Source of the DNA: a virus
Length of the DNA stretch: 12,947 nt
Direction: 5' to 3' (one strand)
Virus genome (UHGV): UHGV-0093871
A model generated the notes under the pieces. That model was not told the DNA's origin and did no database searches. It saw nothing but the letters and a program-made list of their open reading frames with translations. Shown here piece by piece: positions 4,184 through 6,345 of this stretch. Both the position numbers and the translations under genes were made by a program. How positions within the stretch are numbered: position 1 is the first letter of the stretch; each line of letters begins with the position of its first letter.

Positions 4184-4944
4184 TCAGCTTCCTTGTTCCA
4201 GTTTTTCAACCTTACTCGTCAAATTATCGACCCTAACCATTAGGGCCAGAATTGCCTCATGGTGCAAAGCTGCAGCAACCCCGTAAGTATCGACAGTTTT
4301 CACATCAGGAATAATAGTTCCGTCCTCCAGAGTAATATCATAGCCACCTTTAACAGCTTCGGGAAATACTTGCTCAACGTCCTGTGCAATAAAGCCGTAA
4401 CCAGTGGTTTCATTGTCTATACGCTCCCAAAAGCAGCCTTTAATGGCTTTCATCTTTGTGAGAGGATCGGATATGCGCGCGATGTCTTTTTTTATACGCG
4501 CATCTGAGAGTGATACCCATTGACCACCAGTGCCACGACCATCTGGGTAAAACATAAATGATGCTGCTGCCCCTCCAGATTCTGCCACCACATTTAACTG
4601 AACACGATCAAGTGGGGTAGAGCCGCTACGTATTGCACCAAACGCCCATGAACCGCTATACCACTTACCAATTATCTGATTAACATAATTCCCCTGAGAT
4701 GGATCAGTGGTCGTATTATTCATCTCAATGGAGTTATCACCGCCACTTCCCTTTCTGACCCCTAAACCACCACCGGCATTTGTATGCCAGTCAGTTGCTC
4801 CGCCGCCAACACCGTTGATTGTCACAGCAGATGAAATCGTTCCTCCTGATTTTCCGTTCACCGTACCCATGCGTGAATCATCCCCGGCCGCCACCGTTCC
4901 CGCCGCCGTTCCAACGTTCCTGGTGGCGCTGTTTCCCAAACCGA
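4184..4944 (-). CDS. Silent alternative tail-fibre C-terminal cassette B (252 aa after the core) with a peptidase S74-type intramolecular chaperone domain
   Basis: Begins at the crossover core immediately after the stop of cassette A (TAA = reverse complement of 4948-4950). Encodes GLGNSATRNVGTAAGTVAAGDDSR then ...WVSLSDARIKKDIARISDPL (Ser-Lys dyad motif SDxRxK) and a C-terminal chaperone-like segment. No ATG or RBS of its own. Confidence 0.7.
4875..4944. repeat. 70-bp perfect direct repeat, copy 1 (cassette-B side of crossover site B)
   Basis: Identical to 5771-5840. Identity ends exactly at the GA core (4943-4944). Confidence 0.9.
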
Positions 4945-4956
4945 CCTTTATTCACC
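4931..4956. other. gix/hix-like crossover site B (same orientation as A); outer half-site degenerate
   Basis: gtttcccAAACC-GA-CCTTTAttcacc. The inner half is identical to site A; the outer half has CC where GG is expected and contains the stop codon of cassette A. Confidence 0.45.
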
Positions 4957-6345
4957 TTCATCCGTAGCCATTGCGAGCTCTGCGGCCCTGATTTTTTTGT
5001 TGTATAAAGAATCGGCAGGCATTTCGACACGGACGGACACAAACTGGTCACGCGGAATGTCGACCGGATCGCCATCGCTGATACCCTGCAGCTCGTTCCT
5101 GGCGAATGCAGGCGCGCCAGGATGTGTTCGATGATAGGTTTGCACCAGCACAGAACCATCAGCGTTTACTTCGTAATCCAGCCAGATAAGCGGTTGTTTA
5201 TTGCGGTCGGTGGGGATGTCGAAACCGCCATCAATACCTCCCCAGGCCGCATCAGAGTTAAGTCCCTCACACCCTTCAACAAGATATTTTCCCCTAGCCA
5301 AGCGGGTTACAGTACAGCCTTCTGATTCGTCGTTAAGCTGGCATGAACCATCCCTGAACAACTTGATAATTGGAGAGGCAGCTTTCAACGTACCGTCTGA
5401 TGCCCGAGTCGTGTTTCCAGTGTGGTAAAGCTTCATCCAGCCAGTGTCGACACCATCAGCCATCCCCATAAATTGAATGACTTTTCCGCTAAGGATCAGG
5501 GCGGCAAAGGATTGTTGCGCAGCAGACGTGGCCCCACTGCCAACATTTCGGTCCGAGAATCTGATACCTGAACCATACATACCCGGCCCACCTGACGTGG
5601 TAGGAGAGACGTTACAGAAGCGCGTTCCATGACTTTTATCCCAGATGTCGCCGATTACTGGTAAAATTTTTGAACCTACGCCAAATGACCCCGTTATCAG
5701 CACATTTCCTTCACCCTCACCAGTATCTTTTGTTGCTGCACTTCCTAATTTGGCAATCTTATCGAATCGCGAATCATCCCCGGCCGCCACCGTTCCCGCC
5801 GCCGTTCCAACGTTCCTGGTGGCGCTGTTTCCCAAACCGAGGTTTGCGCGAGCGTCAGCTTCGGTCTTTGCCCCAGTCCCGCCCTGTGCAATAGACAGCG
5901 CAGTAGTGAGCCCTTTCAGCTCGGTGATATCGCTGTTGGACCCCTTTCTGGCAAGCGCGCCAATACTTGGAATATTAACGGAGGTTCCGTTGATGGTAAC
6001 GGTGATGGTCTGGTTTGCTGAGGTAGTGGCGAACGTCTCCCACGCGCCAATGTTCTCGTCATACTCTTTGATAAGCTGCGACATCGCCTGTGCCAGTCCG
6101 TCGACAGAGATGTTGTCGGACACCAGTATTCCATACTTCTGGCGGCTCAGCGCCGGGGAAGCAGCAGGCGTAACCGTCATTGACGTGGCGCTGTTCACAG
6201 ATGAAATCTGGAACATCTGCACCGGGTTAGACATGACGATGATCGTCTGGCCAGCGCGGACCTGGCTGGCCGGTGACGTCCAGTTTGTGCCCGTCCCGGT
6301 GGCGGTATTTCCGTTAATTGCGATAGTGCCAGTGTTATAGAGCAT
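4948..6345 (-). CDS. Tail fibre protein, expressed form: 169-aa constant N-terminal part fused to cassette A (465 aa total)
   Basis: ATG at 6345 with GGAG 5 nt upstream; the track start at 6360 is an alternative TTG. Gly/Thr-rich fibre-like sequence (MLYNTGTIAINGNTATGTGTNW...). The junction peptide ANL/GLGNSATR... spans crossover site A. Confidence 0.8.
   Translation of the reverse strand: MLYNTGTIAINGNTATGTGTNWTSPASQVRAGQTIIVMSNPVQMFQISSVNSATSMTVTPAASPALSRQKYGILVSDNISVDGLAQAMSQLIKEYDENIGAWETFATTSANQTITVTINGTSVNIPSIGALARKGSNSDITELKGLTTALSIAQGGTGAKTEADARANLGLGNSATRNVGTAAGTVAAGDDSRFDKIAKLGSAATKDTGEGEGNVLITGSFGVGSKILPVIGDIWDKSHGTRFCNVSPTTSGGPGMYGSGIRFSDRNVGSGATSAAQQSFAALILSGKVIQFMGMADGVDTGWMKLYHTGNTTRASDGTLKAASPIIKLFRDGSCQLNDESEGCTVTRLARGKYLVEGCEGLNSDAAWGGIDGGFDIPTDRNKQPLIWLDYEVNADGSVLVQTYHRTHPGAPAFARNELQGISDGDPVDIPRDQFVSVRVEMPADSLYNKKIRAAELAMATDEGE
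5771..5840. repeat. 70-bp perfect direct repeat, copy 2 (cassette-A side of crossover site A)
   Basis: Identical to 4875-4944; flanking bases differ immediately on both sides. Confidence 0.9.
5827..5852. other. gix/hix-like crossover site A inside the expressed fibre gene, core GA at 5839-5840
   Basis: gtttcccAAACC-GA-GGTTTgcgcgag. The central 12 bp AAACCGAGGTTT match the gix core as I recall it; the two half-sites form an imperfect palindrome (8/12). Confidence 0.55.

What the first reader, a model, noticed from the sequence alone, without database searches (positions are those of the whole stretch)
4875..5840. 70-bp perfect direct repeat at the cassette junctions, ending exactly at the crossover core
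Copies at 4875-4944 and 5771-5840 are 100% identical, encode the shared peptide GLGNSATRNVGTAAGTVAAGDDSR, and diverge on both flanks. Identity stops precisely at the GA core. The homologous stretch in cassette C has diverged (about 60% identity, six codons shorter). Perfect identity between A and B against divergence in C suggests recent recombination or gene conversion. Direct orientation also means a single site-specific event between A and B would delete cassette A (896 bp) and fuse B in frame.
Basis: seen in the sequence. Interest (0 to 1): 0.55.

Follow-up and report, generated by a model that had tools for sequence, protein, structure and literature searches.

The report
Orphaned three-cassette phage tail-fibre inversion switch
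The 70-bp repeat is the shared first stretch of two alternative tail-fibre tips in a decayed E. coli prophage; each tip begins at a DNA-invertase crossover site. This is a well-known kind of host-range switch, and here an insertion sequence has replaced its invertase gene.

Summary
Window 4875-4944 and 5771-5840 are identical, code for GLGNSATRNVGTAAGTVAAGDDS(R) on the minus strand, and stop matching right after GA (TC on the coding strand).

The repeat is the common "head" of two promoterless tail-fibre C-terminal cassettes, A and B. Each starts at a 26-bp Gin/Hin-type crossover site. A third, inverted cassette C sits at 3067-4130. Together they form a three-site multiple-inversion switch, like a small p15B Min system, in a lambdoid prophage.

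Clonal E. coli CX isolates carry a homologous locus in three of its four possible inversion states, with breakpoints at the TC core and a Gin-like invertase next door.

In this window the invertase gene is gone. An ISL3-family element (359-3014) replaces it, and the prophage is a roughly 12-kb remnant between intS and torI/dsdC. The switch is therefore probably frozen as Sc-A.

The same 70-mer, with 0-5 differences, heads unrelated cassette bodies in other phages. Recombination at this head is evidently frequent, but it cannot be dated or placed in this genome.

Deletion of A is geometrically possible and has a natural parallel (phage LLS versus contig L020). It is not the enzyme's normal outcome.

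This is a new member of a known kind, of low to moderate interest.

The parts
5771..5840 (-). Repeat copy 1: the 70-nt head of cassette A, the expressed tail-fibre tip. It includes the 2-bp core and the right half-site.
4875..4944 (-). Repeat copy 2: the 70-nt head of silent cassette B.
5827..5852 (-). Crossover site 1 (Sc|A): CTCGCGCAAACC TC GGTTTGGGAAAC. The core is at 5839-5840.
   Evidence: The same left half is joined to different cassettes in L009, L010, L020 and L021.
4931..4956 (-). Crossover site 2 (end of A|B): GGTGAATAAAGG TC GGTTTGGGAAAC. The core is at 4943-4944. The stop codon TAA of cassette A (4948-4950) lies inside the left half-site.
   Evidence: The near-identical internal site ACTGAATAAAGG|TC is used for inversion in the CX isolates.
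3055..3080 (+). Crossover site 3 (invertase side|C): ATCTATAAAACG TC GGTTTAGGATAC. The core is at 3067-3068. It is inverted relative to sites 1 and 2.
5841..6345 (-). Constant N-terminal part (Sc, 168 codons) of the side tail-fibre gene, outside the invertible DNA.
   Evidence: It is 95% identical to phage LLS gene 22.
4948..5840 (-). Cassette A, 297 codons plus stop, with a Phage_tail_C_2 C-terminal domain. It is currently fused to Sc to give a 465-aa fibre.
4184..4944 (-). Cassette B, 252 codons plus stop, with a Peptidase_S74 intramolecular chaperone. It has no start codon of its own and is silent, in the same orientation as A.
3067..4130 (+). Cassette C, 353 codons plus stop, with Peptidase_S74. 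It is silent and inverted. Its head is six codons shorter, and its body is 93.7% identical to the LLS gene 23 cassette.
3015..3054 (+). Conserved spacer that in intact loci separates site 3 from the invertase gene. Homology to LLS and CX15 starts exactly at 3015, 26 nt upstream of where the fin start codon would be.
359..3014 (+). ISL3-family insertion sequence, carrying the transposase (1613-2935) and an ORF6N/P22_AR_C passenger ORF (705-1598). It occupies the place of the invertase gene. Its 8-bp flanks do not match (AAATTATT versus AAAAATCA).
   Evidence: (I6)
354..358 (-). The last 5 nt (2 nt of the final codon plus the stop codon) of an invertase gene as found next to intS in E. coli ABWA45. 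This is all that remains of it.

Best explanation
What it is. The two 70-bp copies are the identical 5' heads of two same-orientation, promoterless C-terminal cassettes (A and B) of a lambdoid side tail-fibre gene. Each head begins at the 2-bp core of a 26-bp Gin/Hin/Cin/Pin-type crossover site. With the inverted cassette C, they form a three-site multiple-inversion switch.

How it works (inferred from homologous loci). A serine invertase encoded next to site 3 cuts at the TC core and swaps whatever lies to its left: the constant fibre part Sc, the end of cassette A, or the invertase side. The cassette on the right is untouched. Only oppositely oriented sites recombine, which gives four isomers. 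Sc can end up fused in frame to A, B or C, and B needs two successive inversions.

Why the identity has these boundaries. It starts at the core because DNA to the left of the core is non-homologous by construction. It ends at GATGATTC because that point is a recurrent mosaic junction, where conserved heads and variable receptor-binding bodies are reassorted by homologous recombination within and between phages.

State in this window. The invertase gene, and with it the enhancer expected inside its 5' end, has been replaced by an ISL3 element. The prophage is a remnant. The switch is therefore almost certainly frozen as Sc-A, and the repeat is a fossil of the switch rather than an active deletion device.
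For: Shown in this window:
- Repeat and its boundaries.
- Three sites of the form 12-TC-12, found 3 times against 0 expected by chance.
- All three Sc-cassette fusions are open and in frame: 465, 421 and 522 aa.
- Cassettes B and C carry Peptidase_S74 self-chaperones and A carries Phage_tail_C_2.
- No serine recombinase is detectable by tblastn.
- IS ends and mismatched flanks are defined against a copy that has an 8-bp target duplication.
- The window spans intS to torI/dsdC, with L and J truncated.

Shown in homologous loci:
- CX15, CX21 and CX07 have 100% identical flanks but three different cassette orders. The three left halves and three right halves are re-paired exactly at TC.
- The simulation gives four inversion-reachable states.
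- The adjacent recombinase has Resolvase + HTH_7 domains and matches Mu Gin, PDB 3uj3, at E = 4.7e-88 over residues 1-181.
- Phage LLS is annotated with a 'serine-type DNA invertase Fin' and IR-L/IR-R at the same positions. Switching in LLS is predicted but not tested (PMC12315714).

Head as a mosaic module:
- Heads differ by 0-5 nt in front of four unrelated bodies, while bodies are 72-75% identical or unalignable.
- Homology between window C and LLS gene 23 begins exactly where the head ends.

Frozen state:
- Seven metagenome contigs encode the exact Sc-A protein. Wherever the junction is visible it reads Sc-A-B, including in two differently deleted prophage remnants.

Literature:
- 26-bp crossover sites at the outer ends of larger 36-478-bp repeats are typical of such switches (PMC4134206).
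- The invertasome makes inversion the exclusive outcome (PMC3798978).
Against: - No inversion isomer of this particular locus has been seen. Activity is inferred from homologues whose cassettes are only partly the same.
- A Gin-family invertase from another prophage could act in trans (PMC4134206). 'Frozen' therefore rests on the inferred loss of the cis enhancer, which I did not locate in fin.
- The left half of site 2 ends in GG rather than the usual CC or CG. Its function is inferred from the near-identical CX site.
- The origin of the perfect identity is unresolved. It could be in-situ conversion or inheritance of a common head variant.
Confidence: 0.85

Rival explanations
1. Recent in-situ gene conversion. 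In this genome or its immediate ancestor, the head of B was overwritten non-reciprocally by the head of A, or the reverse, through RecA-type homologous recombination between the two cassette heads. This produced 70/70 identity.
For: - L024 carries A-type and B-type cassettes whose heads differ at 9 of 70 positions. B-type heads in L011 and L024 differ from the window head at 8 positions.
- The differences between head variants that I inspected (for example GCG GCG versus GCT GCC) are synonymous, so protein-level selection does not explain the nucleotide identity.
- B keeps TCACG immediately after the identity ends, as its relatives do.
Against: - The identical head also occurs on an A-type cassette in L010, and a 1-nt variant occurs on a B-type cassette in Enterobacter L029. 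Both cassettes could simply have been inherited or acquired with this common variant.
- Within-locus pairs are not enriched for near-identity: 17% against 13.5% have 2 or fewer differences.
- Other three-site loci work with heads sharing only 22-24 nt (L020) or none (CX cassette c2).
Confidence: 0.35
2. The directly repeated sites are a working deletion or excision device. Invertase-mediated recombination between sites 1 and 2 removes cassette A as an 896-bp circle and fuses Sc to B.
For: - The geometry and reading frame are right.
- A natural presence/absence polymorphism with exactly this geometry exists. L020 equals phage LLS plus one 787-bp cassette unit, bounded by the cores of two direct sites, with flanks 96-98% identical.
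- Low-level Gin deletions are on record by title only (Plasterk 1983, cited).
Against: - Gin/Hin-type invertases are topologically restricted to inversion (PMC3798978; PMC11850598).
- The five CX assemblies show inversion states only, read from sequence in three and inferred from matching hit patterns in two; no deletions are seen.
- No invertase is present in the window.
- All seven contigs retain cassette A.
- The LLS/L020 difference could equally be a gain, or homologous recombination within the 24 shared nucleotides.
Confidence: 0.05
3. Integron-like cassette mobility. A unit running from one core to the next (head, body, stop codon, left half-site) regenerates a complete 26-bp site when circularised. 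Such a circle could be captured at the crossover site of another phage, which would explain how three-cassette loci and head/body mosaics arise.
For: - Internal left half-sites sit at the 3' ends of unrelated cassettes and always contain the stop codon: TGAATAAAGG in the window, L020, CX and L010, and TTATGATAAACC in L030.
- The LLS/L020 indel is bounded exactly by cores.
Against: - There is no direct evidence for circles or for intermolecular capture.
- Gin-family enzymes disfavour intermolecular reactions.
- Tandem duplication plus divergence is a simpler route. L020 cassette X is 79% identical to its neighbour, and the two direct cassettes in CX share A-like C-termini.
Confidence: 0.08
4. 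Chance similarity or an assembly artefact, such as a collapsed or chimeric repeat in a metagenome assembly.
For: One contig (L027) ends inside the repeat, as assemblies often do at repeats.
Against: - 70/70 identity cannot arise by chance in 12.9 kb.
- Independent assemblies with k-mers longer than the repeat give the same A-B junction.
- The same architecture is present in finished E. coli genomes.
Confidence: 0.01

Closest known systems
Min multiple DNA-inversion system of plasmid p15B (Sandmeier, Iida and Arber 1990-92; cited; details from my own knowledge)
   Same: A Gin-family serine invertase system with more than two crossover sites in both orientations. Several promoterless 3' tail-fibre cassettes are shuffled behind one constant 5' part. 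Successive inversions, not deletions, generate the isomers.
   Different: Min has six sites and hundreds of isomers, on a P1-like plasmid prophage with separate tail-fibre assembly genes. This locus has three sites and four isomers, in a lambdoid siphovirus-type prophage. Cassettes B and C carry their own S74 chaperone, and the invertase gene is missing.
Phage Mu G segment/Gin and phage P1 C segment/Cin
   Same: 26-bp sites with a 2-bp core. The constant part Sc lies outside and the variable parts Sv lie inside the invertible DNA. Repeats extend inward from the crossover site, 34 bp in Mu and about 0.6 kb in P1 (my own knowledge). The invertase of the homologous loci matches Gin at E = 4.7e-88.
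   Different: Mu and P1 have two sites, two cassettes, U/U' chaperone genes and a myovirus context. Here a third, internal site is embedded in the stop-codon region of a cassette.
Escherichia phage LLS 'Fin' module (GenBank PQ299149; PMC12315714)
   Same: The closest sequence relative. Sc is 95% identical and cassette C is 91-94% identical. The invertase-side half-site and spacer are the same, and the context is lambdoid.
   Different: LLS has two cassettes and an intact fin gene. Its switching is only predicted in the paper. The window has an extra cassette and no fin.
E. coli CX15/CX21/CX07 prophage at tRNA-Pro
   Same: Three sites with the same half-site types, including the internal TGAATAAAGG|TC site. 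Two cassettes share a perfect 70-nt head and the third has a divergent head.
   Different: The invertase is intact and the switch is demonstrably active, with three isomers among clonal isolates. The cassette bodies are different or only 72-86% identical.
E. coli EC958 prophage tail-fibre switches Phi1, Phi2 and Phi4 (PMC4134206)
   Same: 26-bp sites with ACC TC GGTTT cores lie at the outer ends of longer imperfect repeats (36, 227 and 478 bp). A defective invertase is complemented in trans.
   Different: These are two-site switches in P2/Mu-like tail modules with separate minor fibre genes.
R64 shufflon (Rci)
   Same: Multi-cassette C-terminal shuffling by inversions only, with sites in both orientations.
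   Different: It uses the tyrosine recombinase Rci and 19-bp sfx sites, and its target is the pilV adhesin. The window locus is not homologous in either its sites or the recombinase of its relatives.

Membership tests
Gin/Hin/Cin/Pin (Din) invertase tail-fibre switch | Small serine recombinase (Resolvase + HTH_7) encoded next to the invertible DNA | tested here: not met
   tblastn with Fin (CX15) and the ABWA45 invertase finds nothing in the window (best E = 3.7). The gene's position is occupied by an ISL3 element. It is present in the homologous loci L001-L004.
Gin/Hin/Cin/Pin (Din) invertase tail-fibre switch | 26-bp crossover sites: two imperfectly symmetric 12-bp half-sites around a 2-bp core | tested here: met
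   Three sites of the form nnnnnnnAAAss TC GGTTTrGGnnnn were found, against 0 expected. They resemble the EC958 sites and the consensus sites quoted in PMC4134206.
Gin/Hin/Cin/Pin (Din) invertase tail-fibre switch | Sites in inverted orientation bracketing alternative in-frame 3' gene segments behind a fixed 5' part | tested here: met
   Site 3 is inverted relative to sites 1 and 2. The Sc-A, Sc-B and Sc-C fusions are all open reading frames.
Gin/Hin/Cin/Pin (Din) invertase tail-fibre switch | Inversion actually occurs, with exchange at the core | tested here: inconclusive
   Met for the homologous CX locus, which shows three isomers with breakpoints inside TCGGTTT. Not observed for this locus: all contigs show the same order.
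Gin/Hin/Cin/Pin (Din) invertase tail-fibre switch | Fis-dependent recombinational enhancer in cis, normally inside the 5' end of the invertase gene | not tested
   The region where it is expected is deleted from the window. I did not map an enhancer in fin of the homologues. Its location is from established knowledge of Hin, Gin and Cin.
Min-type multiple inversion system | More than two crossover sites, in both orientations, giving more than two isomers by successive inversions | tested here: met
   There are three sites, two direct and one inverted. Four states are reachable by inversion, and three of them are observed in CX isolates.
R64-type shufflon | Tyrosine recombinase Rci and 19-bp sfx repeats | tested here: not met
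   The recombinase of the homologous loci is a serine resolvase/invertase. The sites are 12-2-12 Gin-type.

The most novel reading that the evidence does not exclude
The unit between two crossover cores (conserved head, receptor-binding body, stop codon embedded in a left half-site) may be a mobile cassette in the integron sense. Rare invertase-mediated excision between direct sites would release a circle carrying one complete 26-bp site. That circle could be captured at the crossover site of another phage. The perfectly conserved head would then double as a homology arm for cassette exchange. Under this reading, the LLS/L020 one-cassette polymorphism with core-exact boundaries, and the stop-codon-containing internal half-sites on unrelated cassettes, would be its footprints.
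Probability: 0.08. Interest if true: 0.6.

Novelty: new member of a known kind. Interest (0 to 1): 0.28.

Why it matters
- It shows that the Gin-type tail-fibre switch, best known from Mu/P1/P2-like myovirus elements, also exists in lambdoid E. coli prophages as a three-cassette, Min-like version. In that version the B- and C-type cassettes carry their own S74 chaperone.
- It provides natural evidence, from CX isolates, that such a locus is active. In phage LLS the switch had only been predicted.
- For annotation, the silent cassettes should not be called as separate or 'partial' tail genes.
- For phage host-range engineering, the conserved 70-nt head marks the junction at which receptor-binding modules are naturally exchanged.
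- The window itself is a decayed, invertase-less fossil with no obvious current function.

Tried and rejected
- **Other configurations of this exact locus.** I searched for a B-specific 24-mer in viral, genome and metagenome collections. It found only the source contig, so there are no isomers or deletion variants to compare. A C-head 25-mer also found only the source contig.
- **Exact-protein look-up of Sc-A.** Seven contigs carry it, and all show the same order where the junction is visible. This is consistent with a frozen state but is a small sample.
- **Test for concerted evolution.** I compared within-locus and between-locus head differences and found no excess of within-locus identity. 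The sample is small, non-independent and biased by the 20-mer used to collect it, so the result is not decisive.
- **A conversion example I dropped.** I first read the shared GCT GCC in both CX heads, against GCG GCG in the A-type head of L010, as a clean conversion event. I rejected this when one search showed that the CX and L010 A-type bodies are only about 72% identical, so they are not close orthologues.
- **Possible fourth site at 7576-7591 (repeat D18).** It does not match the AAASS TC GGTTT motif. By my own estimate, not a tool result, about one 16-mer with one mismatch is expected by chance. I treated it as chance.
- **ORF 10900-11466 (188 aa) as the invertase.** It has no Pfam hit and no Resolvase motif, so I rejected it.
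- **Sandmeier et al. 1992 (PMC206102).** The paper could not be read. Statements about Min come from memory and from citations in other papers.
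Full report
**Observation.**
- The repeat finder reports a 78-nt family whose only mismatches are at 4874/5770 and 4945-46/5841-42.
- A direct string comparison confirms that 4875-4944 equals 5771-5840, with spacing 896.
- On the minus strand both copies read TC GGT TTG GGA AAC ... GAT GAT TC, which translates as (L)GLGNSATRNVGTAAGTVAAGDDS followed by Arg.
- The identity stops at GA on the plus strand, which is TC on the coding strand.
- The corresponding stretch of the third cassette aligns with one 18-nt gap and about 67% identity over the aligned bases.

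**Anatomy.** The minus strand carries a side tail-fibre gene of 465 codons (6345 to 4948).
- Its first 168 codons (Sc, 6345-5841) are followed by a 26-bp sequence, CTCGCGCAAACC TC GGTTTGGGAAAC (site 1).
- The same right half and core recur at 4931-4956 as GGTGAATAAAGG TC GGTTTGGGAAAC (site 2). Here the left half contains the stop codon of the expressed gene.
- They recur again, inverted, at 3055-3080 as ATCTATAAAACG TC GGTTTAGGATAC (site 3).
- The motif AAASS-TC-GGTTT occurs three times in the window and never in 200 shuffles.
- Behind each core lies an open, startless reading frame that joins Sc in phase. Cassette A has 297 codons and a Phage_tail_C_2 domain. Cassette B has 252 codons and a Peptidase_S74 chaperone. 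Cassette C has 353 codons, Peptidase_S74, and lies on the opposite strand.
- The 70-bp repeat is therefore the shared head of cassettes A and B.

**What the system is.** The nearest relatives identify it as a serine-invertase tail-fibre switch.
- Phage LLS has two opposed cassettes, annotated IR-L and IR-R at the same positions, and a 'serine-type DNA invertase Fin'. Its paper only predicts tail-fibre switching (PMC12315714).
- A prophage at tRNA-Pro in E. coli CX15 has three cassettes, the same three kinds of left half-site, and an adjacent recombinase.
- That recombinase has Resolvase and HTH_7 domains and matches Mu Gin (PDB 3uj3) at E = 4.7e-88 over its whole length.

**Direct evidence for the mechanism, from homologues.** The clonal isolates CX15, CX21 and CX07 have 100% identical flanks over 5-6.5 kb but three different internal arrangements.
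- When every site is written out, the three left halves (Sc side, cassette-end side, invertase side) are paired with the three cassette heads in three different permutations. Every switch point falls at TC.
- A simple simulation shows that two direct sites plus one inverted site give exactly four arrangements reachable by inversion alone. The second same-orientation cassette becomes expressed after two inversions. CX21 is such a state.
- Two sites in direct orientation are therefore the normal design of a small Min-type multiple-inversion system. They are not a sign of a deletion device.

**Why the repeat has these boundaries.**
- The 5' boundary follows from the mechanism. DNA to the left of the core is exchanged at each event and is unrelated at the three sites.
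- The 3' boundary (GATGATTC) is a recurrent mosaic junction. Across the loci collected with a 20-mer from the head, the window's 70-mer recurs with 0-5 differences in front of four unrelated bodies: A-type, B-type, CX 'c1' type and LLS gene 23 type. The bodies themselves are 72-75% identical or unalignable.
- Window C has a body 93.7% identical to LLS gene 23, with homology beginning exactly where the head ends. LLS gene 23 carries the standard head, so C's short head is the swapped element.
- Longer repeats extending inward from 26-bp crossover sites (36, 227 and 478 bp) are described for other E. coli prophage switches (PMC4134206).

**Was there recent gene conversion?** Recombination clearly spreads head variants, but I could not show that it happened in this genome or recently.
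- For conversion: the differences between head variants that I inspected are synonymous. L024 carries A-type and B-type cassettes whose heads differ at 9 of 70 positions. B-type heads in L011 and L024 differ from the window head at 8 positions.
- Against: the identical head sits on an A-type cassette in L010, and a 1-nt variant sits on a B-type cassette in an Enterobacter prophage.
- Also against: within-locus head pairs are not enriched for near-identity (17% against 13.5% with 2 or fewer differences). Working loci tolerate heads that share only 22-24 nt, or almost nothing.
- I rate in-situ conversion at about one in three.

**Would a single event delete cassette A?**
- Geometrically yes, and the product is in frame at 421 aa.
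- Mechanistically, Gin/Hin-type enzymes are constrained by the Fis/enhancer invertasome, so that intramolecular inversion is essentially the only outcome (PMC3798978; PMC11850598).
- The five CX assemblies show inversion states only. I read three from sequence. CX04 and CX05 are inferred from hit patterns identical to CX15 and CX07.
- On evolutionary time, such events or their reverse do seem to occur. Contig L020 equals phage LLS plus one 787-bp cassette unit whose boundaries are the cores of two direct sites, with 96-98% identical flanks. Its direction (loss or gain) and mechanism (site-specific, or homologous within 24 shared nt) are open.

**State of this particular locus.**
- There is no invertase. 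tblastn with two invertases finds nothing.
- Homology to LLS and CX15 begins at window 3015, 26 nt upstream of where the fin start codon would be.
- Homology to the intS-invertase junction of E. coli ABWA45 ends at 358, two nucleotides inside the 3' end of that invertase gene.
- Between these points lies a 2,656-bp ISL3-family element (359-3014), carrying a transposase and an ORF6N/P22_AR_C passenger ORF.
- Its 8-bp flanks do not match each other, although another copy has a clean 8-bp duplication. This suggests an IS-associated deletion, or recombination between two copies, that removed the whole gene.
- From established knowledge of Hin, Gin and Cin, the cis enhancer inside the gene's 5' end would have been lost with it. 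I did not test this.
- The window runs from intS to torI/dsdC of E. coli. It contains only truncated tape-measure, L and J genes, so it is a prophage remnant of about 12 kb.
- Seven human-gut metagenome contigs encode the identical Sc-A protein. One is 100% identical to window 1-12188. Two belong to a differently deleted remnant that is 100% identical over 3.3 kb. One of these extends into cassette B and reads Sc-A-B, and the other ends 55 nt into the second repeat copy.
- The switch is therefore most likely frozen. Trans-acting invertases are known, so this remains an inference.

**Verdict.**
- The system is a new member of a well-known kind: Gin-family tail-fibre inversion, in its multi-site Min-like form, in a lambdoid context.
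- The repeat itself is the expected conserved cassette head.
- The 'recent conversion' reading is possible but unproven, and the 'deletion' reading is not the system's normal chemistry.
- Interest is low to moderate. The most useful by-products are the natural isomers in the CX isolates, the core-bounded cassette polymorphism between LLS and L020, and the replacement of the invertase gene by an IS.

Noticed in passing
window 359-3014: An ISL3-family element carries a passenger ORF with ORF6N and P22 antirepressor C-terminal domains, in addition to the transposase. Copies at about 91-93% identity occur in E. coli chromosomes, with up to 14 matching places in one genome (GMM060).
   Followed up: partly
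window 351-358 and 3015-3022: The IS has no matching target duplication (AAATTATT versus AAAAATCA), and it replaces an invertase gene from 2 nt before its stop codon to 26 nt before its start codon. This fits an IS-mediated deletion, or recombination between two IS copies inserted at either end of the gene.
   Followed up: partly
window 7729-10592: The prophage is decayed. The J gene is reduced to its C-terminal 590 codons. The L gene is reduced to 113 codons and overlaps the J fragment. The tape-measure gene is reduced to 155 codons. K, I and the N-terminal part of J are missing relative to intact relatives.
   Followed up: partly
L027 and L028 (ENA metagenome contigs) versus window 4838-8188: A second, differently deleted remnant is 100% identical to the window over 3.3 kb, including the Sc-A-B junctions. 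In it, a terminase fragment abuts the last 142 codons of J. The same frozen cassette order therefore occurs in two decay lineages.
   Followed up: partly
L002, L003, L004 (E. coli CX15, CX21, CX07; locus coordinates about 5048-8016): Clonal isolates carry the homologous three-cassette locus in three of its four possible inversion states. By their hit patterns, CX04 matches CX15 and CX05 matches CX07. RefSeq annotates the silent cassettes as partial or pseudo 'phage tail protein' genes.
   Followed up: yes
L020 (reverse complement 7277-8063) versus L001 5992: Contig L020 equals phage LLS plus one 787-bp cassette unit inserted exactly between two direct crossover cores. The extra cassette's C-terminal part is 79% identical to the neighbouring cassette, which suggests duplication or excision/capture at crossover sites.
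   Followed up: partly
window 4945-4956; L002 7080-7091; L030 5821-5832: The left half-sites of internal crossover sites always contain the stop codon of the preceding cassette (GAA TAA AGG, or TTA TGA TAA ACC). This holds even though the preceding coding sequences are unrelated.
   Followed up: partly
window 3069-3122: Cassette C's 18-codon head (GLGYGTKAGTVAQGNDER) was found in no other viral contig by exact 25-mer search. Its body otherwise occurs with the standard 24-codon head.
   Followed up: partly
window 7576-7591: AAACCGACCTTCATTC, inside the conserved 100-codon gene, resembles site 2 at 15 of 16 positions. It lacks the AAASS-TC-GGTTT motif and is at chance level.
   Followed up: partly
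window 6354-6372 and 12092-12110: A 19-nt inverted pair (CAGGCAATAAAAAAACCCC / GGCGGTTTTTTATTGCCTG) looks like terminators. One lies just upstream of the tail-fibre start codon and the other near torI at the remnant's right end. An adjacent direct match is at 6399-6418 and 12102-12121.
   Followed up: no
window 6406-6639 (minus strand): A 77-codon ORF with a lipoprotein-like signal (MRKLIICMAGAVMLTGC...) lies between the tail-fibre gene and the two conserved ORFs downstream of J. This is the position of cor-like exclusion genes in phi80/HK022-type phages. It has no Pfam hit.
   Followed up: no
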